64,000 nucleotides of DNA. Source: a virus. The stretch is from positions 1 through 64,000 of the IMG/VR virus record IMGVR_UViG_3300032242_002717; one strand, given 5' to 3'. Shown here piece by piece: positions 5,001-52,433 of this stretch. The notes beneath the pieces are model-generated. The model did not search any database and was not told where the DNA came from. It worked only from the letters and a program-made list of their open reading frames with translations. Each line of letters opens with the position of its first letter. Position 1 is the stretch's first letter. The position numbers were made by a program, and so were the translations under genes.

Positions 5001-5024
5001 AAAGGTCTCCGCGCGGAGACCTTT
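5001..5024. promoter_or_regulatory. 24-bp perfect palindrome AAAGGTCTCCGCGCGGAGACCTTT (dispersed motif copy)
   Basis: Direct reading; related copies at 5183, 15272, 15820, 28439, 36328, 52344. Confidence 0.8.
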
Positions 5025-5234
5025 GCAGATCTGAGCCAGGGTATGGACGCAGCGTTCGTTTAAACGAACGTAAATGGGCCTTCCTGCGACTTTGGAGGCT
5101 GTCGCCTCCTTATCATCGGGTTGAGCTTGGAGCCTCTTAAATCGAAGATTTGGGGCTTGCGTAAATTTTGAGACGATCAAAGAAACGGTCTCCGCGCTTT
5201 TGTGGAGACCGTTTGTAAGTCGAGAGGCTGAAAA

Positions 5235-5780
5235 GTGATGTCACGTGAATGCAATGATAGGTGCCAATGTTCCGTATGCAAAGAACTTGACATTGTAGAA
5301 TTAGAGGCTGAGAACACAAGACTCAAATGGGAAGCAGAAAGGCTGCGAGAAGAGAATCGCAAACTTAGAGATGCATGGCCAGAAAGCAAGACAATTAAAG
5401 AGTGGTCTTCCGTTGAGAATTCCATTTACGTCACAACGATAGGCAACTTTTTTTCTTACCCTGATTGCCGGTTGTATGGCACTTGGGATGAAGCGGTTAA
5501 TGCAGCAGCAGAGATTACTCCAAGCAAAGAAGAGGCGGGAATATCGAGCGTAGCCGATAAGCTTCGAGAAGAATTGGTCGCTGCACATAAAGAAATAGGA
5601 CTTGTCCGCCAAAGCGCAGGGCAACTCATACTTTATGTGGCGTTGGCACGTTTGGATATGAATGACATGCGTGAGGACATAAGCAACATGTACAACGAAA
5701 ACAAGGAACTTGCTGCAAGGTGTGAGCGTCTTGAGACTGAAAACAAAATTCTTAGGGATGCATTCGAGTGCGTTGGCTAA
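5235..5780 (+). CDS. Modular coiled-coil hypothetical protein (RKLRDAWP module)
   Basis: N-terminal CxCxxC; module shared with 12031-12342. Confidence 0.7.
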   Translation: MMSRECNDRCQCSVCKELDIVELEAENTRLKWEAERLREENRKLRDAWPESKTIKEWSSVENSIYVTTIGNFFSYPDCRLYGTWDEAVNAAAEITPSKEEAGISSVADKLREELVAAHKEIGLVRQSAGQLILYVALARLDMNDMREDISNMYNENKELAARCERLETENKILRDAFECVG

Positions 5781-5798
5781 AACTGAGAAGGGCATGCA

Positions 5799-6083
5799 AT
5801 GCTTGGAACAAGTGCGGTGCGAGACGCGATGAGTACGATGGAAGGCGTTTGTCGGAGTTCTGGAACAGGAGAATCTCTTGACGTTATTCGTCGATACATT
5901 GAAAAGCTTGAGTCTGAGTCTTTTGACGCAAGAGACGAAATTGCTGAGATGGACTCGGTTTTAGAGTCCATTGCATCGTGTCTTGCAAGTAGTGCAGACG
6001 GGACGACCAGTCAAGCGAGATGCATATTGGACAATTGGCGTCTCAATAATGCATTCTGGAAGTCAAGTACGCCTAAGCCGTGA
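5799..6083 (+). CDS. Hypothetical protein
   Basis: ORF in operon orientation. Confidence 0.55.
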   Translation: MLGTSAVRDAMSTMEGVCRSSGTGESLDVIRRYIEKLESESFDARDEIAEMDSVLESIASCLASSADGTTSQARCILDNWRLNNAFWKSSTPKP

Positions 6084-6104
6084 TTCAGTCTATAGTCACG
6101 ACTC

Positions 6105-13169: not shown

Positions 13170-13862
13170 ATGTCAAAAGTCAGTTTGACTAGAGATGAAA
13201 TAATCAAACTTATCGATTTACATAAAAACAATGACAAATCTGCAATTCAAGAAATTGTCGATTGCAACATGGGTTTAATTAGAAAGATAGCATCAAATTA
13301 CGCTTGTCTTTTTAAAATTCTGCCAAGAGATCAGTTCTACGATGACCTTCTTCAAGAGGGGGTAATCGGCGTGATTGAGGCGGCTGAAAGATTTGACTCA
13401 GGCAAAGGCACAACATTTTCTACCTACGCATACAAGCTAATAAGAGGTCGAATTGCGAGTCACTGCATGCAAACTTGCGGACAAATGTCTTTGCCTTTTA
13501 CGACGATAAAGAAAGCTGTGCAATCTCATCATGGAAAAGCAGTCGTGGACAACATGAGGTCAAGCGTTCGCATATTTCCTGGAACTGAACTTGGAATATG
13601 TTTTGAAGAAAGCATGGCACTTGAAGAAAAAGACGAGCTAAATTGGATGGAAAATAAGGTTTCTCAAGTGGTTGGCAATATGAGTAGAAGAGATAGGGAG
13701 GTCATGTCGATGAGACTTGGACTCAATGGAAATCAATCCATGAGTCCACTGGAAATCAGCAGGAAAACAGGGGTTAATTATGGTCTTTCGAAAATGATTG
13801 TTAGTAAAGAGTTGAGACGAATGAAAATGCTTTTCAAGGGATGCGTGCAATCATGGACATAG
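13170..13862 (+). CDS. sigma70-family sigma factor 2
   Basis: NMGLIRKIA, DLLQEGVIGVIEAAERFDSGKGTTFSTYA; region 4 HTH. Confidence 0.88.
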   Translation: MSKVSLTRDEIIKLIDLHKNNDKSAIQEIVDCNMGLIRKIASNYACLFKILPRDQFYDDLLQEGVIGVIEAAERFDSGKGTTFSTYAYKLIRGRIASHCMQTCGQMSLPFTTIKKAVQSHHGKAVVDNMRSSVRIFPGTELGICFEESMALEEKDELNWMENKVSQVVGNMSRRDREVMSMRLGLNGNQSMSPLEISRKTGVNYGLSKMIVSKELRRMKMLFKGCVQSWT

Positions 13863-14506: not shown

Positions 14507-15103
14507 ATGCTGATAATATTGCAATATCTCTGTTTTGTTGCTATCATTATGATAGCAACTAATCGGAGAAGTCGCATGAGTTCAGTTTCTGCTATTTCAT
14601 TGTTTTCTGGGCCAATACGGAAAGCATTTGAAAAGAAAATGGCAAGAAAAGATGCTGTCTTGCCTCCTGTTAAATATAAGCAAGGCGTTTTTAAATGGTT
14701 TGAACAAGACCCTATCATAGAAATCAACGAAAATTTTAACAATAGTCAAACAATTGTTAAACATTCGTTGGACACACAAGAAAAATCAGAGATATTGGCT
14801 CCATGGGAAGGCGAAAACCTTTTTGCCTGCAAGGATTACGTTGCAAGCATTATTCAGCCAGAGACTTGTGGACAGGATGATTTCATAAATAAAACCAAAA
14901 GAACATCACGTCGAAAATGGTCTATGCAAAGGCCGGACTGTGTAGGTTGGTGGAGGCGTAGGGATGTTGGAAGGAAAGGGTGGGGGCTGCTGGCCAAGAT
15001 GGAAATGCATAACGGAAAACTTGCCTGGATGAAATACAATACCTTGGTTTCGTATGTTGATGAAATCGAGGAAGGTAAGTTTTTTTGGCTTCCGTGGAAA
15101 TAA
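14507..15103 (+). CDS. Hypothetical protein with N-terminal TM
   Basis: ORF with hydrophobic N-terminus. Confidence 0.55.
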   Translation: MLIILQYLCFVAIIMIATNRRSRMSSVSAISLFSGPIRKAFEKKMARKDAVLPPVKYKQGVFKWFEQDPIIEINENFNNSQTIVKHSLDTQEKSEILAPWEGENLFACKDYVASIIQPETCGQDDFINKTKRTSRRKWSMQRPDCVGWWRRRDVGRKGWGLLAKMEMHNGKLAWMKYNTLVSYVDEIEEGKFFWLPWK

Positions 15104-15117
15104 ATTCCTTTGTGTTG

Positions 15118-15146
15118 TTGCCTTGTTATGGTTTTGTTGCTACTAT
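15118..15146 (+). promoter_or_regulatory. sigma70-type promoter upstream of the non-coding region
   Basis: TTGCCT-17 nt-TACTAT with extended -10 TG. Confidence 0.7.
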
Positions 15147-15152
15147 GTTGTT

Positions 15153-15700
15153 GGTAGGCTCGATTGGCCTACTTGCGTATTTTCGATTTTCGATTCAAGC
15201 GGTCGCCATACGCCACGAAAAATAGACTAATAAATCTGCCAGCGAGCTATCACAAGGGCTTTTAAGGCAGAAAAGGTCTCCAATTGGAGACCTTTGGTTT
15301 TCACGATGTTCTTTTCCCTGTGGCAAAACGACCAATGCTTGAAACCTGACACCTCCCTGATAAGAGGTGGAGCTAGGGGTGAGGCGAAAGCCAAAAGACT
15401 CAACCGGCGATTCTAGCCAAACCCGGTCCCCCGAACGATCCGCATGCCATTCGTGATCACAAAAAAATTCCAGGCAATGTCCTCAATCTGACAACCTGGG
15501 GGTCATGACCTACGCAAGTAGGTTCGCAAAACTTACTGGCCAGAAGGGCCAGGGTGGCAACAGGACGAGTTTGCAGGTCTGAGACTATCGGTGACGTTAC
15601 GGCAATCGCTAGTGATGTTTGTTCTTCAGTGTTGTACGGGTCTATGTCCAGGAAACTCAGGGTAATAGTTTTCTGTTCGTAGGAAGTACAGTCAGGCAAA
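15153..15700 (+). ncRNA. Putative large structured non-coding RNA, family not recognised
   Basis: No plus-strand ORF of 60 aa or more; nested helices, GAAA and GCAA tetraloops, long-range pairing CCTGAC/GTCAGG; dedicated promoter. Confidence 0.65.
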
Positions 15701-15856
15701 AAGTAAAAATACTTTTAGTCAGACAGACAAGGAAGAGACGCAGGCAGCACTAGATATAACATGACCCATAAAGATATGCTATGCGCTGAGCTAATTGTGC
15801 TTTTTTGAGTTGTTTTATGGTCTCCGCGCGGAGACGTTTTCTGTCAGGAGACGCCT

Positions 15857-16489
15857 GTGAAAATCATGTTCAACGGAACCTCTGGTGGAGTTGTTGAGTT
15901 TGTTGTTCAGTTGGATGAAGGGCTTATCGATTCTCATGGATCAAGCTGCGGATACGTCGAATCCTTTTGGAGATGCCTTGATTCTTATCTTCAACTGACG
16001 CGAGTTGCTTCCGGGTACGGAGAAACACCGGATGCAATCAAATCTTGGCTACTCGAAAAGATCTGCGTGATGAAAACTAGGCACGAAGGCCGAATGGCTT
16101 ACAACGACGCCTGTATTGACCTTGAGTCAATGATTAAGTCTGAGTGGGACGAAACTGCCAGGCGAATCCAAAACGGCTCTGTGCCTTCCCTGGGGCTTCC
16201 TGGAGGCCCGCGAGTGCTTGAGCCTAAAGATGACGTTCCGTTGACTCATGGCGACATCGCAGCAGAAACTAAAGCCACAGACCTTCAAAGTCTTAATGAC
16301 AACCCATTAGAGGGACTGTTGCTTATTGCCGATGGTTTGGAAGCCGCATTGAGTCACAGGCTAGCAGAAAAGATCAGGTCTTGCGTGTTAAGCATTCAAA
16401 AAACCGACAAGTCGCAAGGATTACAAAAGTTAAATCCTATCGATCACGATCACGAAGCGACAGTTGTTGTCAATCAAGCTTCAAGTTAA
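15857..16489 (+). CDS. Hypothetical protein
   Basis: AGGAG RBS, GTG start; palindrome copy at 15820-15835 in its leader. Confidence 0.65.
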   Translation: MKIMFNGTSGGVVEFVVQLDEGLIDSHGSSCGYVESFWRCLDSYLQLTRVASGYGETPDAIKSWLLEKICVMKTRHEGRMAYNDACIDLESMIKSEWDETARRIQNGSVPSLGLPGGPRVLEPKDDVPLTHGDIAAETKATDLQSLNDNPLEGLLLIADGLEAALSHRLAEKIRSCVLSIQKTDKSQGLQKLNPIDHDHEATVVVNQASS

Positions 16490-19637: not shown

Positions 19638-22600
19638 ATGGCAGACGACCAACTAACGCAAAAACAGAGAGCATTAGCAGAACTTGAGCTTCGTCGTCGG
19701 GAGACGATCAAGAATCTCGGTCCTGTTTTTGATTGGTATGGAAAACCGTGTTTTTGCAAAGAGTATGATGCGGAAAAGCAGAATTGCAAAAAGCATCCAA
19801 GAGCATTGCCTCATCAAAGGCCACCTGATGGAATTGATTGGCTAACATGGATGATGCTTGCCGGTCGATCAAGCGGAAAAACCCGAGCGTCCGCTGAGTG
19901 GATTCGCTACAAGGTTGAATCTCATGCAGCAAAAGGCGAGCAGATAAGAATTGCGCTGGTGAACGAGACGGTTAGTGAAGTTCGTCGAGTGCAAATCGAG
20001 GGTGCATCGGGATTGTTGGCGGTATCTCCGCCTTGGTTTATGCCCGTCTATATACCTTCAAAAGCTGAAGTTGTATGGCCCAACGGATCTGTGGCTTACA
20101 TATTTTCAGGCGAACAGCCAGACCAACTCCGAGGACCGCAACATCACTATGCATGGTGCTTGCCTGGGTGGACTCAAGTCCTTATGGGCGATGGCACGGA
20201 AAAGCCAATCTCTGACGTTGCCATCGGCGATAAGGTGATGACAAGAGCCGGTGCAAGGACGGTTACGGCATCAATGATGACTCGTCGTTCGGCTCAATGT
20301 CTGACTATGACTTTATCAGATGGAAGAACCCTGACGGCGACCGCAGAACATCCTGTTTACATCGAAGGTCGTGGATTTGTTCCTCTTGGGCAATTAAAAC
20401 CAGGAATGCTTGTATGTGCGATAGATGCATCGTTCACGATGGAGTCTCTTATCACGTCTGGGCAAAAGGATACTACGAGACAAGAATCCGACTTCATCGT
20501 GTCATATGGCAGCAAGCATTTGGGCCAATCCCCAAGGGATTTGACGTCCACCACAAGAACGGCAACAAACTCGACAATCGAATTGAAAACCTTGAATTGC
20601 TTCTCAAGGCAGAGCATAGCAGATACCACTTTGCCATTCATATCACGCCCAACGTCAGAAAAAAAGCGGCAGAAAGATCAGTTGCCAAAATGCATCAAAG
20701 GCGGAATGCCAACGAACAAGTCGTTCGTATTTGTGCGATGTGCAAAGGCGAGTACACTAGCAGGTCTTTTACGCCATCTGCTTTCTGCTCGTCGCCATGC
20801 GTGGAAAAAGCAAGGTCTGGTGGATTCGCAGGCGAAAGCAGGATTTGCTCGCATTGCGGAGCGACTTATACAGCATACAGGAGATGCCACAAGTATTGCT
20901 CAAAGAATTGCAACAACCGTGCATCGCAAGTGCGATATGCGAATAAGGAATCGCTTCTCAAGACAGTTAAATGCGAACAATGCAGCAAAGAGTTTGACAG
21001 CAGGCGAATTAACGCAAGGTTCTGCTCAAGACCTTGTTCCCTTAACTACCACGCTCGAAATTCAAAGCGTACAACCTTGTCGGACGCTACTAGACGTCTA
21101 CGATCTAACGGTTGACAAAGAACACGAATTTTTCGCAAACCGTTTACTGGTAAGGAATTGCGATGAATTGTGCCTAACTCCAGACACCATAATAACTTGC
21201 GCCGATTTTGATAAGCCGATATCTCAAGTAGTTCCAGGCGACATGGTGTTGACTCGTGCTGGTTATCGGCCAGTTGTTGCAGCCTGGAAAACAACAGATT
21301 TAGCCGTTGTGTATCGCCTGACAGCAGACGATGGAAGTTTCATTGTTGGCACTGCCGGGCATCCTGTGTGGGTTGAGGGTGAAGGATGGGTTCCATTAGC
21401 GAATGTGAAGCCGGGCAGCAGACTGAGAAGCCTGACCTCATGCCGTGCGTTGTCTGGGGAGGTCGTCGATGGTGGCTCAATGGCCCATACTACATGTCAC
21501 GAGAAGGAAAATTGCTTCATAGGGCGATTTACGCAGAACATCATGGGCCAATCCCGAAGAACATGGACATTCACCATAAAGACTTTTGCAAAACTAATAA
21601 CGCAATTGAAAACCTTGAGGCGCTTACGAGAAGTGATCACCTCAAGTCTCATAGGATCGTTGGCTGGCCAGGTCCACCAAAGAAAGAGCTTGAACGCAGG
21701 TTCCGGCCTTGGCATTGCCGAGAGCCTGTTTCGTATACATGTAAGTGGTGCAACAAACAGTTTGTCAGCAAAGCTACATATGCATACTACTGCTCCAAAG
21801 AATGCAGAAATAGGTACGTCTGGCACATTGGCACAGATAGCGGGCCTTCAGCCAAGTCAAAGCGAATTCGAGGCAAGATATCTGAGGGAACTCGAAAGCC
21901 ATACAAAACAAAGAAACCAGAAGGCTGGAAGCCAAAAGAGAGGCCGGTCAAGCCTTTGCCTGAGTGCGTTATCTGCAAAACACAGTTTGCGGCCAAAGAC
22001 AGTCGCGGCGTTACATGCGGTTTTGAATGCGGGTGGTCACTACGAAAAAAGCGTTGGGCCGAGAAGCGTGAGCGTGGAGAGGCTTCCCGAAAGAAGTCCG
22101 GTGTATAACATTGAGGTCGAAGGGGAACACGAGTATTTCGCCAACGGTATCCTAACTCATAATTGCAAATGGTCAAAAGCCCAAGCGCAGGTTTGGGATA
22201 ATCTTCTTCTGGGCATGCGTCTTGGCAATAATCCTCAAATTGTTGTGTCTACTACGCCCCAGCCAACGCCAACCCTCCGGGCCATAATTGCAGACAAATT
22301 TACTAAAATATCGAAAGCTTCTACCTATGCCAACCGAAACAATCTTCCAGAAAAGTTCTTTGAAAGCGTAGTAAACAAATACGAGGGTACGAGAATCGGT
22401 CGCCAGGAGTTACATGCTGAGGTTTTGCTTCAGAATCAGAATGCTCTTTGGAATCAAGCTCAAATCGATTCTTTGCGAGTCAGGTCTGTTCCCTATGGGG
22501 TCGAACTTAAAAGGATAGCGGTTGGAGTAGACCCTGCTGGCAAAATATCGGAGATGGCAAAGTTTGTTCATGGCATGCCAACGGAGTCTGGATCGGGCGA

Positions 22601-27383: not shown

Positions 27384-28102
27384 GCAGCATGAATTCGGCG
27401 GGAACTACATACTGGGCAAATCCGACCCCACTGGCAGTATACAACTTTTGCCTGGATGAGCATATTGCGCTAAGGGTTATGGACGATTTTGTTAGAGTTA
27501 CCCCAGACTCAAACAAGCTATCGTCTGGGTATGACGGTTTTATGACGGACTCTTCGCCTTGGACCATGACTAGCCAGTCAAATAATTTTCAGTCGCTAGG
27601 TGTTGCTTCTGGTCATGTTATCTGGCTTCAAAAGCCAACAAATATTTTTGGCGCGAATGGCGATCTGTTTGCGATTGACAGCGTATCTGGCAACACGCTT
27701 ACGATGAGGGGTATAGGTAGAAAGCTTTCGGTGGGCAAGCCTCCTTGCCCTCCTGGATCGCTTTCTGCTGTTCAGTTCATTATAAAGACATTGGACCCCC
27801 AAATCGAGGAAGTCAGCTATGAGGTAATGCAAGAATATGGAATGACAATTAACCTTCCTAATCATCAACCTAGTCAGTTGATGGATCAGAGGCAACTAAG
27901 AAAATATTGCATTGAACGTGTTTTGTACTATCGCTATTTAGATATGAGCAAGCAGGCAGATTCCAACGATCTCTGGCTGCATAAGAGTAAGGTTTATGGC
28001 GAGTTTGCGGAAGAGACCGTGCGAAAGATTGAGGTAAGGTGGGGTCCAGAGGGCAACGATGAACCTCCGACCGGAAAGTATATTGGTCGCTTATCCAGGT
28101 AG
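27380..28102 (+). CDS. Probable head completion/connector protein
   Basis: Synteny only. Confidence 0.5.
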   Translation: MSSMNSAGTTYWANPTPLAVYNFCLDEHIALRVMDDFVRVTPDSNKLSSGYDGFMTDSSPWTMTSQSNNFQSLGVASGHVIWLQKPTNIFGANGDLFAIDSVSGNTLTMRGIGRKLSVGKPPCPPGSLSAVQFIIKTLDPQIEEVSYEVMQEYGMTINLPNHQPSQLMDQRQLRKYCIERVLYYRYLDMSKQADSNDLWLHKSKVYGEFAEETVRKIEVRWGPEGNDEPPTGKYIGRLSR

Positions 28103-28783
28103 AAGGTACAATCCATTGAAAGATAGTGCCAGATTCGATTCTTTGAATAGCAACCTTGATTTCTCTGAATCCTTTCTTGTCGAGTCTAGGCTTTTCCCGT
28201 TCCATAACAAACATGTCGTTGGATTGATTTTTAAGGATATTGAGACTTCAGTCGAGCGAGCTATCCACATTTCAGTAGAAGAAGCTGGACGTGTTGTAGA
28301 GTTGCTATCCGTCCTGACAGGAAACAAGCATTTGTCAAGCACAAAAGACTTGAAAATCAATAAGTCGTGCTGCGGATCTGGCCCTGACTGCAATGAGTGC
28401 AATTAGTCTTTGATTGATTACGCATGTCTTCGCAAAACTTCTCCGCGCGGATACCTTTACGGAGGATTGTCATGTCAGCATCCAAATCGAGCGGTGGCAA
28501 CCCTGTACCTAAAAGCAAAAAACATGCGAACGTAGACGCCAGGTCAAAAACTTCTCCTGCTCCATTCCACAGACGAGTTCCTTACGTTCAGCAAACCGAG
28601 CGATTAGAGGTTCTGTCGAATTTTGTTTCTGCGTTTGCTCCTGCCTTTCTTGAAGACATGCCAGCTTCCCTGGAGTGCCTTGATCCGCTTCTGGTTGTTG
28701 ACGACGATGATGTCACATCGGCCAGAAATCTCGCGTTGATTGAAGCCTTCAAGGCAATTCAAAAGATTTCGGAAGACCGATAA
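28059..28783 (+). CDS. Two hypothetical proteins (28059-28406; ~28472-28783)
   Basis: Second has GGAGGA RBS preceded by a palindrome variant. Confidence 0.5.
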
Positions 28784-28787
28784 TCTT

Positions 28788-30095: not shown

Positions 30096-30113
30096 ATATA
30101 AGGAAAATGATCA

Positions 30114-31280: not shown

Positions 31281-31287
31281 CATCTAG

Positions 31288-36318: not shown

Positions 36319-36360
36319 TTTTAAGCTGTCTCCGCGCGGAGACCTTCAAGGAGATTTAAA

Positions 36361-37284
36361 ATGGCAGTTGTAGGAAGTTGCATTTATGCGAGGTGGTATC
36401 TTGAGGGTGCTTCTTACTGGGGTTCGTATCCAAGCCCAGTGACATCTTCATTCTATACGGTGTTCACTGAAGCCGGTTCAATGACGATGGATACAAACCC
36501 ACAGCCTTTTACAATCAATACGGCAGGCTGTGGCATTTTAACTCACAAGTGGAAAAAGTTTGTCAAGCGAAAGTCCGTTGCAGGTTCGCTAAAAACTCCC
36601 ATTTGGCCGAGCCAGTCTCAATTGATCGCGTTTGCTACTACTCCACAGTTAGTTGGTGGTCGCTATCAGCTTCCTTCCTATACTGTTGACATGTTTGACG
36701 GATTTGAGATTCGTCGTTTTACTGGCGTTAGAGTAACAAGTGCTACTTTTACGTCTGACGACTCGTCAGACATGCTAATGGGTTCATTTACCTTGATTGG
36801 AAAGCAGGAAGTGACACCTCCTGGAACCTTGACGGCTCCCAACCCAGGCACGGATTTCCCTATTGAGATCCCATACACGCATTATGACTCGTCTGGCTAC
36901 ATTACAGTGGGCGGCACTGTGATTAGCGGATACAAGAGCGTAGAACTAAAGGTTGACAACACGCTCCATATGCCCTTTCTTGATGGCGTGTGGATCAATC
37001 GAGCCAATCTAGCGCAGAGGGCAACGTCATGGCAAGTCGTGCTTTCAAAAGAAAACACGACTTATCGTCAAGCGTTTACAAACCAGACTGTCACCGCATC
37101 TTGCCTTCTGAAGTACACTCATCCGAACGGCACAAATAGTGTCACGTTCAACCTTCAGAACGCAGATTACCTCGAAAGTTATTCTGTTGATCGAAACTGG
37201 GACAGCGACCAGTATGAAACGCTTTCGTTCCAAAGCTTCCTTGACCCGACCTCGGCTACAGATCTTGCCGTTACTATCGTTTGA
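36361..37284 (+). CDS. Major tail tube protein
   Basis: AAGGAG RBS; RRFTGVRVTSATF beta pattern; terminator follows; upstream of tape measure. Confidence 0.7.
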   Translation: MAVVGSCIYARWYLEGASYWGSYPSPVTSSFYTVFTEAGSMTMDTNPQPFTINTAGCGILTHKWKKFVKRKSVAGSLKTPIWPSQSQLIAFATTPQLVGGRYQLPSYTVDMFDGFEIRRFTGVRVTSATFTSDDSSDMLMGSFTLIGKQEVTPPGTLTAPNPGTDFPIEIPYTHYDSSGYITVGGTVISGYKSVELKVDNTLHMPFLDGVWINRANLAQRATSWQVVLSKENTTYRQAFTNQTVTASCLLKYTHPNGTNSVTFNLQNADYLESYSVDRNWDSDQYETLSFQSFLDPTSATDLAVTIV

Positions 37285-37312
37285 CGGTGGATTCTCGCAA
37301 TAGCATTCCTTC

Positions 37313-37364
37313 GCGGGGTTCTTTGGGGTCTTTGGCCAGAACCCAAGGAACCCCGCTTTATTTT
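37313..37364 (+). terminator. Terminator hairpin after the tail tube gene
   Basis: GCGGGGTTCTTTGGG / CCCAAGGAACCCCGC then TTTATTTT. Confidence 0.7.
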
Positions 37365-37377
37365 AAGGAGGTGCAAA

Positions 37378-37932
37378 TTGATAAATTTCAGTCTTCATTA
37401 CGACAAGCAATTGTCTGCTCTGTCTGTTGGAATAGCTAGTGCTGACTTTGATCTGTTGTCGCTTGCTAACAAGCTTGCAGTAATCATGATAGAGGAAAAC
37501 AAAAACGCAAGACTTGCAAGTATAGACAAAGATGGAAATCCTCTTAGTGAAATTGTTTTATCCACGATTGCCAGAAGAAAAAGAGCCAACAAAGGCAACG
37601 GTCCTCCTTTGATACCTGATTACATGAAGTCTAGGCTAATAGATACTGCCGAACCTGAAATCAATTTAATTTCAGATGACCATATTCAAATAATACTGCA
37701 TTGGCCTGGAGCGGAACCTTGGCTAAAATACCATAAGACCGAATGTAAGACTCGAAATGGTATTCCATTTAAATCTGGCCAGCCAAGACCAGTTAGAGAT
37801 ATTGTCGGCATGGACAAAGGGTGGATCGAAAAGATTCGCCAAGAGGCCATCAAAGAAATTCAAAGCAGTGCCGCCAGCGGTTCTCCCGCACACGCCGGAC
37901 TTCCTAATGGGCTGATCGAGGAGTTGATTTAA
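37378..37932 (+). CDS. Virion morphogenesis/neck-type protein
   Basis: AAGGAGG RBS; STIARRK...KYH...PVRDIVG. Confidence 0.55.
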   Translation: MINFSLHYDKQLSALSVGIASADFDLLSLANKLAVIMIEENKNARLASIDKDGNPLSEIVLSTIARRKRANKGNGPPLIPDYMKSRLIDTAEPEINLISDDHIQIILHWPGAEPWLKYHKTECKTRNGIPFKSGQPRPVRDIVGMDKGWIEKIRQEAIKEIQSSAASGSPAHAGLPNGLIEELI

Positions 37933-40900
37933 TGTCTATACGCGAAGAGATCGTCCTTGATATTCAAAGGCAAGGCGGGGACATACTCAATGAGATGATT
38001 GCCGAGTTGGCAAAAGCAAAAGACGAGATGAATGTATTGACAGGATCTTTCTCTGGAGGAAAAAAGAATTTAGACGATTGGGTCAAGGCTCTTAACGAAG
38101 CAATCAAAAAAACAAAAGATTATAGCACCGTAGTCGAGGCAGCAAAAAAAATAGAAGACGATGCAAGAAGGAAAAGAGAAAAGGATGCGGCAAAACTTAA
38201 AGCTGATCAAAAAGAAGCCGAAAGAATAAACAACGCATTGATTAAAGATGCGAAAGCTTTGGCAGATGCTGAATCGCAAAAAGCTTCCGCAGTCGTAAAA
38301 TCCGAATCTGATATTGCTAAGGCGAAAAATGCCGCTGCGTCTGGAGATTTAGCGACAACGAAAAAGCTTTTAGATCAAGCAAAGAACGAAAAGCTTAAGA
38401 TCGAAGCTGAAATTAAAGCAAACAAGATAGCATCAAATTCAATTTCTTCGGGGTCTTCTGGAAACCCTTCCAATGCTAGCCAGCAGGCTCAGAATGAATT
38501 GGCCAGGAAGGCGATAGAGCTTCATAACAAACTCTTAGACGCTAAATTGAAGCTGACGGAGATTGAAGACGAACACACTCGTGCGATGGCTGCCAACGCT
38601 GTAACTACCGATCAAGCTATTAAAAAATCCGAAGAGTTGGCAACAAAAGAAGAGAATCTTAAAAAGGCTGTCATAGAACACGAGAAAGCAAAAGCGGAAT
38701 ATGCAAAAGACCCTAGTGCTGCAAACAAGTCAGCAGTAGACAGTGCCTACAAGGTCAAGATAGCTGAAGCCAGAGAGTATAAGAAGACACGCGATGAATT
38801 AGAGGAAATCGCAAGGAAGGCGATAGCCACGGACAACGAAGAGGCTCAGGTTGTATTAGAGAATGGTACAAAGCGAAAGAACTCAAACACGGTAGCAAAA
38901 GAAGCGGTAATAGGAAACAACAAGCAAATTGCCGAGAGCGCGAAAGCAAAAGCTAAAGCAGATCAAGAAGCATTGGATGAACAAAAAAGAATCGAGAAAG
39001 AGGCAGCACAGGCAGCTGCCGAATCTGTTCAGCAAAAAAAGAAAGAAGAAGCAGATCTTGAATCTTTAGTCTCAGCAAGGGCCGGAAATGTAAAACGCGC
39101 GCAGAAAGAAATGGATGATGCAAAGCGAAAGTCTGCTTCGATTGAAAAAGAAATAAATTTGATTGATGATGCTCTGTATGAGGAAAGAGCAAAGCTTGGA
39201 AATGCTGATCTCGAAAAGATTAAAGCACTCCAGGGAGAAAAAAAGAAGCTTGCCACAAGCTATATTGAGCAACAAAAGGAAGTAGCTAGAACAACCGACA
39301 ATGTTGCGACAGCAGAAAAAAATGCAGTCGTTACAACCCGTTCAATAATGGAAGCTGTAAAAGAGCTAAACCTTGCCAGAAAAGAGCAGCAGCAAAAACT
39401 AAAAGATCTCGCTAATGCGCAAGATCAATATAACAAAAACAGCACTCCAGAAAACGAAAAGAAACTCGAAAGTGCGTATAACGCAGTAGCGGCTTCTGTC
39501 GAGAGAATGAAAAATGCAACCAATGGCATGAATGATTTGAACGACAGAGCCGGAGGCTCTTTGTCTGGAGTTGCCGATGCCGCATTTAAAACTGGCGAAG
39601 GACTTGAAAATGTTTCTTTGCGTTCAGGGCACTTGTCTAGGGCTATATATTATACGGCACAAGCGGCACAAGATTTAAATTATGGGTTTGTCGCAATTAT
39701 CAACAATCTTCCACTCATTACTGAGGCTTTCGCAAAAGCGGCTGGAGCGGATCACCAGAAGGCTATGGCGTGGGCGGCTGGAGTTGGGTTTGTTACAGCG
39801 GCCTTTCAAGCACTTATAACACTCGGTCCAAAGGTATACGATTTCTTTAAGGCTATAGACCTGACAACGCTTGAAGGTCAAATGACGAGCGTTAAAAATG
39901 AGCTAACAATTCTCAACGGAATGAGCTATGTGTTTAATGTCGATCAAAGTCAGCTTTTTAAGCTTGAGTCAAAGCTTAAGGATCTTGAGGACAGGGAAAA
40001 ACTTTTAAAGGCTAACCTTGAAAAGAAAAGCGTTGACGAAGTCGCAGCGGAGGAAGCCGCATCCAAAGTGCTTTCTGAGCATGGAGGTGAAAGGACTATC
40101 GTTGATAAAGACGGAAAGAAAGTACAGGTAAAGGGTGGAGAAAACATTAAAAATGTCTTGATGTCTGACGATTCTTTTTTGACTAAAAATGAAAAAGAAG
40201 AAGTAGAACAGCTAAGATTAAAACTTGAGAAAGCAAAGGAAATGCTTGATGAGATGCATGAGAATGGCGATCATTCATACACCCTGGCAAACTTAACAAT
40301 ACCCTACATCGAAAGTCAAATCAAAGGGATTGAAGGTAAACGAGCAAAAAGAGTCGATGAAAAACTTGGAAATTTTTCTGGAGCAGTGCCAGGATCGGAA
40401 GCCGAATTTTCTGATATTGTCAAAAGGAACAGAAAGGCACTTGAGGAGTCTGGAGTCGATGTAGACAAAATTCTTAAGTATGCTCCCGAGGTAAATAAGG
40501 AAAAGGCCAAGCAACATAGGTTGGATGGCACTAAACCTCAGTACGAGCAAGACGAGGAGATTGAGCAGGAGGTTAGGAAATCTCTAGACCCAGAAGGCGC
40601 AAGAAAGATTGCCAAAAACTCATTGAATCCACTTCAGGACGTTCAGAAGTTTAACAAGAACCTTAAAGAGAAGGCTGATAAAGAAGAGAAAGCTCCAGAG
40701 CAAGTCGAAAAGGCAATCGAAAACAGATCGGTGTCAAAGACTTTACAGGAAGCCAAAAAAGAGCTTGATAAGTTTTCCGAAGAAATGGTGACTGATGCCA
40801 AAGGAAGCGATCACGCTACCGCATATAAGAAAATGACAGAAAAAGTAAATGCCTTAATAAATAACGCAGTTACAAACAACAAGTCGATACCTGATAATCT

Positions 40901-48384: not shown

Positions 48385-49572
48385 ATGGACTCGCATGACC
48401 CAAGAAGCCCAAACAGGATAGCCTGGCTTCAGAGCCTGAACCAATGCGCGGATCGCAGAGATAACCCGGTCCCAGTCGGCGGAATCGTAAGTCGATATCA
48501 GACGCCAAATAAGAGAATTGTGATCAGAGCTAACCTGTATGGTCACGGCGGCTACGGGCAGCTTGCAGAATGGACTGGCAGGGAACTTGAGTCGCATGGA
48601 ATCCCTGTAGCGTACGACCCGATAGCAGTTATCGAAGAATTTATTCCTTTGCAAGCTTTTGTGCGAGACCGACTTATCGTTTCGCCGGTCGATAATTGGG
48701 AGCTTTTGCTCTCTACGCCATCAACCAAACCTATGCCCAACAAAAATAGCGTGTTTTTTTCAATGTGGGAGACTACTGGCATAAATCGGACATCTGTGTC
48801 CAATTTAAATCAGTCAAAGTTTGTTATTGTGCCATGCAAATTCAACAGAGACACCTTTTTTGATTGTGGAGTGAATGTTCCTATCGATATCGTGCCTTTG
48901 GGAGTCGATGGAGATAAATGGACTTGCACGGACATGCCAAGGTATCCGTCTGGAGACACGGTGTTTGTGACAGCCGCGAGGCATTCCCATGGTGGCGTAA
49001 GAAAAAATACTATTGATATGGCGAGAGCGTTTTGCGAGGCATTCCCTAAAGGTGACGAGCCTGTTCAATTCAGAATCAAGTGCTTTACGGACTGTCAATC
49101 GCATCTTGATAATCTGCCAAGAGATAAAAGAATCAGAGTCTACAAAAACACCATGACCGATGACCAGTTAGTCGATTGGTGCAAAGAATCCACGGTTGGA
49201 GTTTTTTGTTCAAGGGGAGAGGGTTGGGGCATGCACATACACCAATTCCTTTCAATTGGGAGGCCGGTGATTACATGCTTTGGTTCGGCGATGAACGATT
49301 ATTGCAACCGCGATGTTGCTTTCCCTGTTGAGTTCAAGTGGGAAAAAGCGAGAGACTGTTATGAAGACAGTGGATCTTGGATGGTCCCATTGAGGGAAAG
49401 CATGATAAGCACTTTTCAATATGTATTTAATAATAGATGCGAGGTTCAGAAAATGTCTGGTTTATGCGCGGTGAAAGCGAGGGAGTTTACCTGGAAAACA
49501 ATGGGAAACAAGCTTGTAGAAACACTGAAGATGCGTGGACTACTAAAAGAAATTGGATTTCCAGATGTATAA
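48385..49572 (+). CDS. GT-B (family 4-like) glycosyltransferase
   Basis: GGYG, MWETT, VPLGVD, RKN, SRGEGWGM. Confidence 0.85.
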   Translation: MDSHDPRSPNRIAWLQSLNQCADRRDNPVPVGGIVSRYQTPNKRIVIRANLYGHGGYGQLAEWTGRELESHGIPVAYDPIAVIEEFIPLQAFVRDRLIVSPVDNWELLLSTPSTKPMPNKNSVFFSMWETTGINRTSVSNLNQSKFVIVPCKFNRDTFFDCGVNVPIDIVPLGVDGDKWTCTDMPRYPSGDTVFVTAARHSHGGVRKNTIDMARAFCEAFPKGDEPVQFRIKCFTDCQSHLDNLPRDKRIRVYKNTMTDDQLVDWCKESTVGVFCSRGEGWGMHIHQFLSIGRPVITCFGSAMNDYCNRDVAFPVEFKWEKARDCYEDSGSWMVPLRESMISTFQYVFNNRCEVQKMSGLCAVKAREFTWKTMGNKLVETLKMRGLLKEIGFPDV

Positions 49573-50266
49573 TAACGACGAAAAAAACAGAGAAATGATT
49601 GCCGAGATTCAACTTGGCGATAATCAGGCTCTGGAAGAACTTATCAACTTGAACATGCCGATGGTAAAGGCAGTTGTTAGAGACGTTCTGAAAGGGTGGT
49701 CCAAGTCAAGAAGGTCGAATTTCTCAAGCGATCTGCAACAAGAAGGCGTGATAGCCCTTATTGAGTCATCTCGCAAGTTCAACCTTGAGTCAAAGACTAT
49801 TTTTTATTCTTATGCAAAGAAAGCGATATATCGACGGGTTGTCAGAAAAACGAGAGACATGCTGATAGTCTCGATTCCAAGCACTGTACTCGATTGCAAT
49901 ATGGAAGCATCGAAAGCCGCATTTAGTCTTGAGGCGATAGGCAATAGCAATGGTGGCTTCGAGGGAATGATCGAGAGAGAATGTTGCTTGACGAGCGATG
50001 GTGGAATGAGTCAGATTGAAAACGTAGAAGACATGGAATTTGTGGACTCAATATCAGACATGGTCGATGCTATGCCAGAGATGCTCGCCAGGTGCGTCAA
50101 GCTCAGGCACGGTTACGAGAAAGGCAAATGGTGCTGCGAGAACAGCATGTCTTATCGAGAGATGGGCCATGAGCTAGGAATCTCTCATGTGTGGGCAAGG
50201 GTTGTTTATACTCTCGCCCAACAAGAGTTAAAAATGATGGTTTGCGACATGAGGAACAAAATTTAG
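49553..50266 (+). CDS. sigma70-family sigma factor 3
   Basis: LINLNMPMV, DLQQEGVIALIESSRKFN...FYSYA; MSYREMGHELGIS. Confidence 0.85.
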   Translation: MDFQMYNNDEKNREMIAEIQLGDNQALEELINLNMPMVKAVVRDVLKGWSKSRRSNFSSDLQQEGVIALIESSRKFNLESKTIFYSYAKKAIYRRVVRKTRDMLIVSIPSTVLDCNMEASKAAFSLEAIGNSNGGFEGMIERECCLTSDGGMSQIENVEDMEFVDSISDMVDAMPEMLARCVKLRHGYEKGKWCCENSMSYREMGHELGISHVWARVVYTLAQQELKMMVCDMRNKI

Positions 50267-51021
50267 GAACAGACAGAAATTCGATAAATGGCGACGTTGT
50301 CCTCAAACTGAATTAGTTCTGCTTCAATGCGAATTACATCCCCATCGCTAGGTGGATGGAATGGGCACACTGAGTACTCGTAAACTAACCCGATCACTTT
50401 TAGTCCGGCGACATCGATATTGACGATGTCATATTCGACCGAATACTTGAGTTTTGAGTGGTTTCTTTCTTTGACCTGATGAGCCACTAAAGAAGTAGCC
50501 TCTATCAGCTTGTCTTTAATTAAATGCGTATCATTTATGATCTCGCTGATTTCTGTTGTCATCTTGCGTTGTGACCTTCTTCGGAAATGATGACAAAAAT
50601 GCCTTTTTCTCGAAGAGATTTAAGTTCTTCTAAAGCCTTTGTTCCTTCGTCCATGAACGGTTTCAACGGTTTTTTCTTTTTCCATGATTCGATCATGCCA
50701 GACAATGAGAGTTCCATCGAAATCATTGCATTCTTGTACCGTTCCATATCAGCTTGCATAAATTGGCTCCTCGCACTTTAGCACTATTTCTCGGATCTCT
50801 TTGATTGCGTCCGTAAAGTTTTGCAACTCTTCTTCCGTATCAACCCTGCAAACAAGCTTTTTGGCAACATCATACAAATCCACGGCATTTGCTATGATTT
50901 GCGAGTCGAAAGGATCGGGAAGCCTGTCTCCCAATGCCTTGGATTTTTGCAGAAGATCGTAAATCTCGGTTGCACTCACTTTGACTGGCAAAGTATTCTC
51001 CTTCCGTATTCGGCCATGCAC
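50263..51021 (-). CDS. Three small hypothetical ORFs (50263-50562, 50559-50759, 50749-51021)
   Basis: Overlapping stop/start chain. Confidence 0.55.
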
Positions 51022-51524
51022 AGAGCGTCTGCAATTCCATCGTGAGACTTTCTTGATCTTTCGGTGGCCTTTAAATCAAATCCCGGCCACCGCCGATTGC
51101 AATATGCGATAGAGTCGTTCTTGTCCTTATTTGCAAATCCATCAAGCACGACCTTCTTCCATCTTTGCGGTGTCACGAACTGATAGGGAAGGCCAAGCGT
51201 TCCAACGACTCCTTCGATAATTCCAAGAGATCTTCCGAACGAAAACACGGAAGCCACTCCTTGTTTTGGCATACTGTGAACTTGTTCTATGATGACAAGT
51301 AAAACAACATATACTTTTTCATCGCAAACATATCCCCCATCGTATTGAGAGAGCAAAGACGCTAGGCCGTTGGGATCAATCGAGTTCTTTTTTGATTTTG
51401 TTACTGGCATCGGTTTGCCAGATATTGGAATTCCTGTGTCTTTGTCAATTACGCTTATGCCGCCACTGATCCCAGGATCAATTCCAATCACTACGTCTTT
51501 TGCAAATTCATTTCTGTAAAGCAT
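50976..51524 (-). CDS. RuvC-like Holliday junction resolvase
   Basis: IGIDPG, IIEQV..MPKQG, FSFGRSLG, PQRWKK, DGIADAL. Confidence 0.88.
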   Translation of the reverse strand: MLYRNEFAKDVVIGIDPGISGGISVIDKDTGIPISGKPMPVTKSKKNSIDPNGLASLLSQYDGGYVCDEKVYVVLLVIIEQVHSMPKQGVASVFSFGRSLGIIEGVVGTLGLPYQFVTPQRWKKVVLDGFANKDKNDSIAYCNRRWPGFDLKATERSRKSHDGIADALCMAEYGRRILCQSK

Positions 51525-52327
51525 TAGATTTGCTCATCCTGTTCTTCCCACAAGAAAGCCAAGGCTTCTTCTTTGGTCAAGAAAAAACTGACACCTGGAC
51601 CTTCGTCGCTCTTGTCTTCCGAGAACTCTTCGCTCGAAATACAATCTCCCGGCTTGAATTGCTTCCCGTCCGTCAGGCGCTCGTAAACTGCCTCCCCTGG
51701 GTTCGACGGAGACAGAAGGACTTCTGAGGCTCGGCACCATCTAAATGGCCCGTTGGTGCGTTTAGCGTAGTCAGGAACAACGATCAGGCCGACCACTCCG
51801 TTTCTGAACGCCTTGAAGGCAACGAAAGATCCAGATTGAGGGACGATAGACTGAGACGCGATGGCTACCTCAATTCCTCGGCATTCGTCAGCGTGGCTGT
51901 TCGCAGTAGAGCATCCTGACATGATAGCCTTAAAAAAATCAGATCTTACAAAAACAGACTCAGACCACGACGACATGGAGAAGTCGGCAAACCCGAACTG
52001 AGAGTCAAAGACCATGCCGTTTATCTGAGAGTATCCAAAATCTGCACCGTAGAACTTGGTGTTTTTGATGAGTGTATCGGACAGGTCAGCGAAAAGAAAA
52101 AGCGAGTCAGAGAAGTCGCACCCTATGAAGGTCGATCCAGTAAAGTCGGCATGACAAAAGTCTGACCTTTTAAGATCGGCTTTATACAGCTTCGAGCCTC
52201 TCAAGTTTGCGTAGGAAAGGCTAATACCTCTCTCGGTCGCCATCTCCAGGGCTTCACGTCTTGTATTTGCTTCAGGAATCTCGCAGATGCATGTTCCATG
52301 CACGCTCATAATTGTGATGGCCATGAT
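51524..52327 (-). CDS. Pentapeptide-repeat protein with DUF5758-like C-terminus
   Basis: ANLRG/ADLKR/ADFTG repeats; GSFVAFK...CRASEV...GVSFFLTKEEA; start approximate. Confidence 0.75.
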   Translation of the reverse strand: MMAITIMSVHGTCICEIPEANTRREALEMATERGISLSYANLRGSKLYKADLKRSDFCHADFTGSTFIGCDFSDSLFLFADLSDTLIKNTKFYGADFGYSQINGMVFDSQFGFADFSMSSWSESVFVRSDFFKAIMSGCSTANSHADECRGIEVAIASQSIVPQSGSFVAFKAFRNGVVGLIVVPDYAKRTNGPFRWCRASEVLLSPSNPGEAVYERLTDGKQFKPGDCISSEEFSEDKSDEGPGVSFFLTKEEALAFLWEEQDEQI

Positions 52328-52433
52328 TTGACCTTTCTTTTTGGTCTCCGCGCGGAGACAAGTCTTCTCTTGTGCCGACACATTCTAGGTTTGCTCTCGT
52401 TGCCTGGCAACCTTATGGCAACTAGAATACGGC

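What the first reader, a model, noticed from the sequence alone, without database searches (positions are those of the whole stretch)
5001..52359. Dispersed palindrome GTCTCC-N4-GGAGAC in gene leaders and in the ncRNA
Seen: exact GTCTCCGCGCGGAGAC at 5005, 15820, 36328 and 52344; AATT-centred copy at 15272-15295; degenerate copy near 28439; extended copy 5183-5214 with a CTTT loop and two G-U pairs. All are intergenic or in leaders, most a short way upstream of an RBS (5235, 15857, 28472, tail tube 36361, divergent 52327/52434). Inference: either an operator for a dimeric phage regulator or an RNA hairpin signal. The wobble-paired variant and the copy inside the ncRNA favour RNA; being self-complementary, the ncRNA copy could titrate a binding protein or pair with these leaders.
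Basis: partly seen in the sequence, partly recalled or inferred. Interest (0 to 1): 0.72.

Follow-up and report, generated by a model that had tools for sequence, protein, structure and literature searches.

The report
Dispersed 16-bp palindrome in a phage
A temperate tailed phage and one distant relative carry 5 to 8 identical copies of the 16-base palindrome GTCTCCGCGCGGAGAC, mostly in the short gaps between genes; it is almost certainly a signal read by a sequence-specific factor, but whether it is read as DNA or as an RNA hairpin is still open.

Summary
GTCTCCGCGCGGAGAC occurs exactly at window 5005, 15820, 36328 and 52344 (0 expected), and once more at 68794 of the same 87.4-kb virus record. 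Arm-conserving variants lie at 15276, 5183-5214 and 78738, and a decayed copy at 28439.

One collinear but very diverged relative has 8 exact copies. Two of them are at orthologous places: upstream of the tail-tube gene, and inside the dUTPase 3' end. There the core is 16/16 identical while the flanks have drifted.

About 12 of 18 copies are intergenic (p about 1e-6 to 2e-5). The motif is not a host REP-like repeat: bacterial genomes hold only scattered single copies, and no RAYT gene is present. An unrelated lambda-like phage fragment carries the 14-bp core three times in a similar layout.

Invariant sequence rules out a purely structural hairpin, so a sequence-specific reader is implied. I favour duplex-DNA recognition by a dimeric regulator acting as an operator or roadblock (about 0.45). 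The reasons are the self-complementary centre, the fixed 4-bp spacing, a mid-gene copy and paired sites. An RNA hairpin signal (about 0.3) remains live: there are G-U-compatible variants, and the extended G0 copies sit where terminators are expected.

The closest precedent is the unexplained 17-bp palindrome of Cluster O mycobacteriophages. This is a new member of a known but mechanistically unsolved kind.

The parts
5005..5020 (.). Exact 16-bp palindrome. It extends to a 24-bp palindrome at 5001-5024 (AAAG...CTTT) and starts 11 nt after the stop of ORF 4742-4993.
   Evidence: RNA fold -15 kcal/mol for the 24-mer
5183..5214 (+). Extended variant AAACGGTCTCCGC-GCTTTT-GTGGAGACCGTTT. The arms are kept but are 10 nt apart, and there is a G-U pair on the + strand. 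It ends 20 nt before the start at 5235.
   Evidence: -22.3 kcal/mol, z -7.0
15272..15295 (.). AATT-centred variant, a 24-bp perfect palindrome followed by TTTGGTTTTCA. It is in a terminator-like position after ORF 15054-15230.
15820..15835 (.). Exact copy followed by GTTTTCTGT. It ends 21 nt before the GTG at 15857, the first gene of the packaging/structural operon. The Shine-Dalgarno (SD) sequence AGGAGAC repeats the 3' arm.
28439..28454 (.). Decayed copy TTCTCCGCGCGGATAC, ending 17 nt before the ATG at 28472. Both changes break pairing. The 5' arm can pair with the real SD GGAGGA instead.
36328..36343 (.). Exact copy in the 42-nt gap before the tail-tube gene (36361-37284). It is orthologous to copy 29055 of the relative.
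52344..52359 (.). Exact copy in a divergent control region. It lies about +16 to +31 downstream of the predicted minus-strand sigma-70-like promoter (52410-52382) and 19 nt before the minus-strand ATG at 52324. It is about 80 bp upstream of the plus-strand promoter (52400-52428).
48942..48957 (.). GTATCCGTCTGGAGAC, a one-mismatch match with another centre, inside gene 48385-49572. Probably chance and not counted as a member.

Best explanation
The 16-bp palindrome is a cis-acting recognition site kept by selection for its exact sequence. Most likely it is read as duplex DNA by a symmetric (dimeric) DNA-binding protein, probably phage-encoded. Such a protein would act genome-wide on transcription. 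It could be an operator or roadblock just downstream of start sites and at junctions inside long operons. Paired sites in the long control region before the packaging/structural operon could allow looping. Shown: the existence of the copies, their invariance and turnover, the intergenic enrichment, the absence from host genomes and the positions relative to genes. The binding protein is not identified.
For: (1) There are 5 exact copies in G000 and 8 in the only close relative, G001. Only one other of 2.9 million viral contigs, unrelated and of high GC, holds the exact 16-mer.
(2) The two genomes are saturated at silent sites (64-72% nt identity in the best genes, proteins 35-85%). Yet at the two orthologous sites the core is 16/16 identical while the flanks are 6-20 of 30. 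In the dUTPase copy the identical codons for SPRGD are kept although the neighbouring codons differ. This is selection on sequence, not on structure alone.
(3) The dyad symmetry runs through the centre (GCGC; AATT in a variant). This is expected for a symmetric DNA binder. Only 16 of 256 tetraloops would show it by accident in an RNA signal.
(4) Two variants (15276, 78738) keep both arms and the 4-bp spacing while changing the centre.
(5) One exact copy in G001 lies in mid-gene in a poorly conserved stretch. A decayed copy lies in an 8-codon insertion. An RNA cleavage or termination signal would be harmful there.
(6) Pairs of sites 180-540 bp apart occur in G000 (5005/5187, 15276/15820) and G001 (3977/4310). 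They also occur in the unrelated lambda-like fragment G003 (5402/5688), where they sit in the long non-coding region ahead of the terminase operon.
(7) At 52344 the site sits between two strong predicted divergent promoters without overlapping them.
(8) A published precedent of the same kind was interpreted by its authors as probable sites for dimeric regulators (PMC4351075).
Against: No binding protein was found. There is no ParB_N domain, and the Xre-type repressor genes at 56.9-58.2 kb have no copy near them. The variant at 5183-5214 has its arms 10 nt apart, which a rigid dimer could not use, and it carries a G-U pair valid only as RNA. The decayed G001 copy at 56755 differs by two C-to-T changes that keep G-U pairing on the sense strand. 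The extended G0 variants sit where terminators belong: at the orthologous place after the invertase gene, G001 has an ordinary hairpin plus U-run of unrelated sequence. Most copies end 12-23 nt before a start codon, which also fits an mRNA-level role. Only two related genomes exist, so there is no co-variation with a protein and no expression data.
Confidence: 0.45

Rival explanations
1. The motif is an RNA hairpin signal: GUCUCC-GCGC-GGAGAC (6-bp stem, tetraloop, -8.3 kcal/mol) in mRNA leaders and 3' regions. It would be recognised sequence-specifically by a phage or host RNA-binding protein or nuclease. Possible modes are nut/boxB-like antitermination, a processing site, or a translational operator in which the 5' arm (anti-SD-like) and 3' arm (SD-like GGAG) control access to the neighbouring ribosome-binding site.
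For: In 11 of 18 copies the palindrome ends 12-23 nt before a start codon, directly 5' of the SD. At 52344 it lies at about +16 to +31 of a predicted transcript. In G001 copy 78399 it starts 6 nt after the promoter-like C-run/T-run motif. There are G-U-compatible variants (5183-5214; G001 56755). At 15820 and G001 29055 the real SD is AGGAGAC, identical to the 3' arm. In the decayed 28439 copy the 5' arm is predicted to pair with the SD. A full palindrome gives the same RNA whichever strand is transcribed.
Against: A self-complementary loop has no obvious role in an RNA signal. The loop is changed in two variants whose arms are perfect. There are no compensatory changes in any stem. No boxA-like or other conserved flank is present. 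No N-, Q-, RegA- or coat-like protein was detected by Pfam or PHROGs. A mid-gene copy exists. The short intergenic gaps of a compact genome would put any intergenic element next to an SD.
Confidence: 0.3
2. The copies are ordinary intrinsic terminators or attenuators (structure only) that happen to share a stem.
For: 15276 and 15820 have U-rich tails, and 15820 is picked up by the terminator scan. The extended variants are strong hairpins at gene ends. Variant 78738 replaces a canonical terminator seen in G001.
Against: Structure-only hairpins drift with compensatory changes, yet 13 copies in two saturated genomes are identical. G001 copies lack U-runs, and two of them are followed by separate hairpins, the one after 43961 being a canonical terminator with a T-run. 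A 6-bp stem of -8.3 kcal/mol is weak. Copies occur inside genes.
Confidence: 0.08
3. The motif is a small selfish or recombinogenic palindrome (REP/MITE-like, a recombinase or nuclease target) that spreads or is homogenised at the DNA level, without a regulatory role.
For: Sites turn over between G000 and G001. One decayed copy lies in an 8-codon in-frame insertion. A serine recombinase (invertase type) gene ends 40 nt from variant 78738. G000 has 13 perfect 16-bp palindromes against about 1.3 expected. Recombination between copies of the Cluster O palindrome has been described (PMC4351075).
Against: No Y1/RAYT transposase is present in G000, G001 or G003. Bacterial genomes hold only scattered single copies. 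16 bp is too short for serine-recombinase sites (established knowledge of hix/gix/res sites of 26-28 bp), and the symmetric central CG gives no polarity. Recombination among 5-9 sites would scramble essential operons. Two sites are stably orthologous.
Confidence: 0.07
4. The motif is an operator or target of a host factor shared by several hosts (a host transcription factor, or a Cas6-type repeat mimic).
For: The 14-bp core recurs three times, in non-coding positions, in an unrelated lambda-like phage fragment of different G+C.
Against: In 401 Planctomycetota genomes the core is found 25 times against 13 for the reversed control, at most 3 per genome. In 185,579 species genomes the listed stretches each hold one copy, and there are no arrays. 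The three phages differ widely in G+C (46, 54 and 61%), which suggests different hosts. The host is unknown.
Confidence: 0.1

Closest known systems
17-bp palindromic repeat of Cluster O mycobacteriophages (TGTTCGG-N3-CCGAACA; PMC4351075)
   Same: A lineage-specific short inverted repeat with invariant arms and fixed spacing, dispersed through a siphophage genome. It lies partly in short intergenic gaps, partly near gene 5' ends and partly inside genes. It is absent from host genomes and its sites are gained and lost between relatives. Its function is unknown, and its authors suggested dimeric regulators.
   Different: The sequence is different. There are 5-9 copies per genome instead of more than 30. 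Here the centre is also conserved and self-complementary, some copies have extended stems with U-runs, and the same core occurs in an unrelated phage.
Stoperators of Cluster A mycobacteriophages (L5 gp71; PMC6550527, PMC9283540)
   Same: Many copies of one short repressor site lie in short intergenic gaps across the genome of a temperate phage. They stop elongating RNA polymerase. This is the mechanism I consider most likely by analogy.
   Different: Stoperators are asymmetric 13-mers, orientation-dependent and bound by a monomer. The same motif is also the operator at the early promoter next to the repressor gene. Here the site is a perfect palindrome and none lies in the immunity region.
Start-associated sequences (SAS/ESAS) of Cluster K mycobacteriophages (PMC3203893)
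   Same: Conserved repeats just upstream of start codons of unrelated genes.
   Different: The SAS is asymmetric, includes the SD itself and lies 3-7 bp from the start, in one orientation. Here the element is palindromic, lies 12-23 nt upstream and is separate from the SD.
KorB O_B / ParB parS sites (from my own knowledge of RK2 and chromosomal ParABS; not checked in a paper here)
   Same: 13-16-bp perfect palindromes, nearly invariant, with about 4-12 copies dispersed over a replicon. Some are near promoters, some far away or inside genes.
   Different: No ParB_N domain was detected in this phage. The phage integrates through a tyrosine integrase, so partition is not needed.
Lambda nut/boxB hairpins (from my own knowledge)
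   Same: Identical small hairpins in operon leaders, read sequence-specifically as RNA by a phage protein.
   Different: boxB has a non-palindromic pentaloop, a neighbouring boxA and two copies per genome. No boxA-like flank or N-like protein was found here.

Membership tests
Intrinsic (Rho-independent) terminator | G+C-rich hairpin immediately followed by a U-run | tested here: not met
   Only 15820 among the exact copies passes the scan. G001 copies have no U-run, and the one at 43961 is followed by a separate canonical terminator. The variants at 15276 and 5183 do resemble terminators.
Intrinsic (Rho-independent) terminator | Sequence free to drift as long as the stem pairs | tested here: not met
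   13 identical copies in two genomes with unalignable flanks. The true terminator after the invertase gene differs completely between the genomes.
REP / RAYT repeats | Many copies in the host chromosome | tested here: not met
   Every listed genome contigs stretch holds a single copy, in unrelated taxa. In 401 Planctomycetota genomes there are 25 hits against 13 for the control, at most 3 per genome. The host itself is unknown.
REP / RAYT repeats | Associated Y1 (RAYT) transposase | tested here: not met
   PF01797 is absent from G000, G001 and G003 at E<=1.
Stoperator (Cluster A type) | Asymmetric site in one orientation relative to transcription | tested here: not met
   The site is a perfect palindrome.
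Stoperator (Cluster A type) | Same motif serves as operator at the early promoter beside the repressor gene | tested here: not met
   No copy or near-copy lies between 55.4 and 58.6 kb, where the integrase, two Xre genes and the divergent early genes lie.
Stoperator (Cluster A type) | Bound by the immunity repressor; blocks elongation | not testable with these tools
   Needs EMSA/ChIP and transcription assays.
Cluster O-type dispersed palindromic repeat | Invariant inverted arms at fixed spacing, dispersed, both intergenic and genic, lineage-specific, absent from hosts | tested here: met
   compared with PMC4351075. The sequence and copy number differ, so this is the same kind, not the same element.
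Start-associated sequence (Cluster K) | Asymmetric, contains the SD, 3-7 bp from the start codon | tested here: not met
   The element is palindromic and 12-23 nt from the start with a separate SD, compared with PMC3203893.
parS/ParB or KorB operator | Cognate ParB-family protein encoded on the replicon | tested here: not met
   PF02195 is not found in G000 at E<=1. Divergent ParB-like folds are not excluded.
CRISPR repeat mimic (solitary repeat unit) | Same hairpin present as arrays in a host genome | tested here: not met
   All listed genome hits are one copy per 8-kb stretch. The flanks that would form the repeat handles are not conserved.
Serine-recombinase site (hix/gix/res) | 26-28-bp site with about 12-bp half-sites and an asymmetric central dinucleotide | tested here: not met
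   The conserved unit is 16 bp with a symmetric CG centre. Only variant 78733-78758 is 26 bp long.

The most novel reading that the evidence does not exclude
A previously unrecognised genome-wide control system of environmental temperate phages. A single symmetric reader binds an invariant (CG)3-centred 14-16-bp palindrome. The palindrome is placed at operon starts, inside long late operons and even inside genes, and the system is shared as a module between phages with unrelated structural genes (G000/G001 and the lambda-like G003). The same sites may be read on both levels: as DNA roadblocks, and as RNA hairpins whose arms mimic SD and anti-SD. One candidate reader is the DUF3102-like HTH/zinc-ribbon protein of the replication module (60595-61539). 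A homologue of it in a Planctomycetota MAG contig carries the exact 16-mer inside its own gene.
Probability: 0.12. Interest if true: 0.75.

Novelty: new member of a known kind. Interest (0 to 1): 0.55.

Why it matters
Dispersed, invariant, lineage-specific palindromes have been seen in phage genomes for over a decade (Cluster O mycobacteriophages) without a mechanism. This case adds three things. First, there is an independent lineage, probably outside the Actinobacteria-infecting phages. Second, selection on the nucleotide sequence itself is clearly visible: the core is identical across saturated divergence, including inside a conserved enzyme motif. Third, natural variants exist that separate DNA symmetry from RNA pairing, which makes the DNA-versus-RNA question directly testable with a handful of reporter mutants. 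If a single reader is found, it would define a compact global switch for an 87-kb temperate phage that also carries three sigma factors.

Tried and rejected
- Known phages: megablast of 24.5 kb and tblastn of a 452-aa structural-region protein (31288-32646) against 50,697 phage records gave no match.
- Rfam: there is no family at gathering score in the window. At E<=1 there is only a chance pseudoknot hit near 5131 and nothing in 15050-15900. No tRNA was found.
- Close relatives: the tail-tube and capsid searches found only G001. A profile search of 1.84 billion proteins and capsid-based scans of viral and metagenome contigs found only relatives at 31-50% identity, none with the motif.
The 92-kb contig that holds the G001-like tail tube could therefore not be fetched.
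- Expression: no RNA holder was listed for window 28001-38000.
- G002 (high G+C, 2 exact copies in apparently coding, G+C-rich sequence, no similarity to G000) was set aside as chance.
- Most single 14-mer hits in viral contigs lie in long open frames, which points to chance.
- L054 (the 16-mer inside a 337-aa open frame that resembles, from memory and untested, the DUF1016 nuclease family) is judged chance. L134 (the 16-mer inside a homologue of 60538-61539) is kept only as a weak lead.
- A conserved -35-like element upstream of the palindrome was looked for by eye in 15 aligned flanks, and none was seen. A sigma-type promoter reading was therefore dropped.
- Type IIS site reading (GTCTC/GAGAC): 78 + 102 sites against about 171 expected, so there is neither avoidance nor enrichment.
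- The exact motif string is not present in the searchable literature.


Full report
**What is there**

The window is the first 64 kb of an 87,401-bp IMG/VR virus record, G000. The exact 16-mer GTCTCCGCGCGGAGAC occurs at 5005, 15820, 36328 and 52344, and none of 100 dinucleotide-preserving shuffles gives any match. A fifth exact copy lies at G000 68794.

Variants that keep both arms:
- 15276 has centre AATT. With its flanks it is a 24-bp perfect palindrome followed by TTTGGTTTTCA.
- G000 78738 has centre ACAT and 11-bp arms with its flanks.
- 5183-5214 has its arms 10 nt apart, a 13-bp stem and one G-U pair.
- 28439 is a decayed copy (TTCTCCGCGCGGATAC).

A one-mismatch site at 48942 inside a gene is probably chance.

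**The genome**

It is a temperate siphophage with no close relative among deposited phages. Annotated genes:

| Gene | Coordinates (G000) |
|---|---|
| ThyX | 12349 |
| Sigma factors | 13170-13862, 49553-50266, 65202-65831 |
| Large terminase with two inteins | 19638-23066 |
| SU10-type capsid | 25796-26932 |
| Tail tube | 36361-37284 |
| Tyrosine integrase | 55422-56555 (-) |
| Xre-type HTH proteins | 56921-57445 (-), 57749-58210 (-) |
| Rad52-like protein, prim-pol, helicase | 58526-63229 |
| DNA methylase | 66244 |
| dUTPase | 68405-68836 |
| Invertase-type serine recombinase | 78793-79587 (-) |

No ParB_N domain and no Y1 transposase are present.

**Relatives**

Among 2.9 million viral contigs, the exact 16-mer occurs in only two others.

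G001 (84,755 bp) is collinear with G000 but far diverged. Nucleotide identity is 64-72% only in the best genes, and protein identity is 35-85%. It has 8 exact copies plus one decayed copy.

G002 is an unrelated high-G+C phage with two copies in apparently coding, G+C-rich sequence; I take these as chance.

Capsid-based searches reach only relatives at 31-50% identity, and none has the motif.

Two G001 copies are orthologous to G000 copies. One pair sits before the tail-tube gene (36328 and G001r 29055). The other sits in the dUTPase 3' end, 23 nt before the overlapping start of a small membrane protein (68794 and G001r 65398). At both pairs the core is 16/16 identical, while ungapped flanks match at 6-20 of 30 positions. 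In dUTPase the core encodes SPRGD of motif V with identical codons, although the surrounding codons differ.

The other sites are not orthologous, so sites are gained and lost while the sequence stays fixed.

**Distribution**

About 12 of the 18 copies and variants in the two genomes lie outside coding sequence, which makes up at most 8-12% of the DNA. The binomial p is 1e-8 to 2e-5, depending on the non-coding fraction assumed.

The exceptions are:
- the two dUTPase copies;
- G001r 4310, in mid-gene in a poorly conserved stretch;
- the decayed G001r 56755, inside an 8-codon insertion relative to G000.

Eleven copies end 12-23 nt before a start codon, just 5' of the SD. However, the intergenic gaps are so short that almost any intergenic element would be placed like that. 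The gap before the tail-tube gene is 42 nt: 9 nt after the stop, then the palindrome, then the SD.

Other positions:
- G001r 43961 starts inside the stop codon of a sigma-factor gene and is followed 19 nt later by a canonical terminator.
- G001r 51611 is followed by another long hairpin.
- At 52344 two strong divergent sigma-70-like promoters are predicted (2 found, 0.2 expected). The palindrome lies at about +16 to +31 of the minus-strand transcript and about 80 bp upstream of the plus-strand start.
- In G001r 78399 (minus strand) it begins 6 nt after a copy of the phage's C-run/T-run promoter-like motif.

**Not a host repeat**

The 16-mer gives at least 120 stretches in 185,579 species genomes. 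Every listed stretch holds a single copy, and the taxa are unrelated and mostly G+C-rich. This is about the number expected by chance (my estimate: 596 Gb divided by 4^16, about 140).

One hit lies in a Planctomycetota MAG, so I searched 401 genomes of that phylum for the 14-bp core. There were 25 hits in 21 genomes against 13 for the reversed control, and never more than 3 per genome.

**A third, unrelated carrier**

The 14-bp core TCTCCGCGCGGAGA is single-copy and mostly inside long open frames in 80-odd viral contigs, consistent with chance. The exception is G003, a 19.5-kb, 61% G+C fragment with a lambda-type terminase, portal and S49 protease and no protein similarity to G000 or G001. It has two exact copies and one copy with a single mismatch. 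Two form a pair 286 bp apart in the roughly 600-nt non-coding region ahead of the terminase operon. The third sits in the 36-nt gap after the portal gene. This mirrors G000, which has the pair 15276/15820 in the 750-nt non-coding region before its packaging operon and single copies in short gaps.

**What it is**

Invariance across saturated divergence, inside and outside genes, excludes a hairpin selected for structure alone. Where a plain terminator is expected (after the invertase gene), the two genomes have completely different hairpins. Something must therefore read the sequence.

Arguments for duplex DNA:
- The dyad runs through the centre. GCGC and AATT are both self-complementary, which only 16 of 256 tetraloops are.
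- The arm spacing is fixed in two variants.
- There is a mid-gene copy.
- Paired sites occur in control regions of three phages.
- One site lies between divergent promoters.
- Most phage regulators read DNA, which sets the prior.

Arguments for RNA:
- The 5183 variant has 10-nt spacing and a G-U pair.
- The decayed G001 copy has two C-to-T changes that keep pairing on the sense strand.
- The extended G000 variants lie at gene ends with U-rich tails.
- Many copies are close to the SD. Twice the SD, AGGAGAC, is identical to the 3' arm. In the decayed 28439 copy the 5' arm is predicted to pair with the SD.

I put DNA recognition at about 0.45, an RNA-level signal at about 0.3 and everything else at about 0.25. 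These rivals are not strictly exclusive, because a DNA site is also transcribed.

The immunity region has no copy, so a stoperator-like use of the prophage repressor is not supported.

One weak lead is a Planctomycetota MAG contig that carries the exact 16-mer inside a homologue (37-39% identity) of the DUF3102-like HTH/zinc-ribbon protein 60595-61539. G001's decayed copy lies in the same gene family. A comparable hit in an open frame that looks, from memory and untested, like a DUF1016-family nuclease appears to be chance, so this lead may be chance as well.

**The 'ncRNA' part of the finding**

That intergenic region is partly conserved in G001, with 82% identity over 62 nt and further collinear blocks. 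This is more than in most genes, so a non-coding function is plausible. No Rfam family matches.

G001 has no palindrome there. The G000 copy at 15276 looks like the terminator of the upstream operon. Titration or pairing by an ncRNA copy is unsupported.

The other intergenic stretch, 4994-5240, is bracketed by copies 5005 and 5183 and folds unusually well (z -4.6).

**Comparison with what is known**

The nearest precedent is the 17-bp palindrome of Cluster O mycobacteriophages. It has invariant 7-bp arms and more than 30 copies, which are intergenic, at gene starts and inside genes. It is absent from hosts, and its function is unknown (PMC4351075). Stoperators and SAS/ESAS are functional analogues, but their defining features are not met. 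The motif string itself is not in the searchable literature.

**Limits**

- Only two related genomes exist.
- No expression data could be found.
- The host is unknown.
- Gene starts are my own calls, made from open frames and G000/G001 conservation.

Noticed in passing
G000 76477-81799 and 75636, 82581, 87184 (outside the window); G001r 74651-84539: A second dispersed motif reads CCCCCC(C)-N3-ACGATTTTTTGA on the minus strand. It has at least 7 exact and several near copies, each 14-60 nt upstream of a minus-strand gene start, and is conserved in G001 as CCCC-N4-6-RNGATTTTTTGA. It looks like a phage-specific promoter of the right-arm gene array.
   Followed up: partly
window 15104-15856: This 750-nt non-coding region before the first packaging/structural gene is partly conserved with G001r 4681-5375, at 82% over 62 nt (15464-15525) plus further collinear blocks. 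That is more than in most coding genes. It may be an ncRNA or the late control region. There is no Rfam match.
   Followed up: partly
window 52382-52428: Two overlapping divergent sigma-70-like promoters (TTGCCA-17-TAGAAT and TTGCCT-17-TAGAAT) are built on an inverted repeat. The plus-strand one would start transcription at about the ATG of 52434, giving a leaderless mRNA.
   Followed up: partly
window 1-60 and G000 87330-87401: Both contig ends are tandem repeats of related units (TCCGGAGGACCG...). The assembly probably broke inside one repeat array, so the record may be a complete circle or a permuted genome despite the 72% completeness estimate. G001 also ends in a tandem array (CCTGGCTTACTGGCCAGTC).
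   Followed up: no
window 4994-5240: This intergenic stretch is bracketed by two family members and folds into five hairpins (-98.8 kcal/mol, z -4.6). They include the perfect palindromes GTTCGTTTAAACGAAC (5054) and GGAGGCTGTCGCCTCC.
   Followed up: partly
window 302, 33627, 36230, 63171; G000 64903, 84074: G000 holds 13 perfect 16-bp palindromes against about 1.3 expected, and 7 of them are outside the family. One, CCGACCGCGCGGTCGG at 63171, shares the CCGCGCGG centre but is not conserved in G001.
   Followed up: partly
G003 = IMGVR_UViG_3300048930_000276, positions 5402, 5688, 12023: An unrelated lambda-like phage fragment (61% G+C) carries the 14-bp core TCTCCGCGCGGAGA twice exactly and once with one mismatch, all in non-coding positions.
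   Followed up: partly
L134 (Planctomycetota MAG contig JAIOPX010000395.1, 27186-27201 of the contig): The exact 16-mer lies inside a homologue of the DUF3102-like protein 60595-61539, in the SPRGD reading frame. This hints at the host phylum or at a link between that protein family and the motif, or it may be chance.
   Followed up: partly
window 19638-23066: The large terminase carries two intein/Hint insertions (1142 aa, against 1031 aa in G001).
   Followed up: no
window 3166-3263: There is a tandem array of the 9-nt unit TCCATGGCC, with variants, inside or next to ORF 3135-3503.
   Followed up: no
window 28740-30095: This 451-aa protein in the head-tail region matches PHROG 704 'DNA repair exonuclease' (E 4e-69) and has an N-terminal Fis-type HTH. 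Its position among structural genes is unusual.
   Followed up: no
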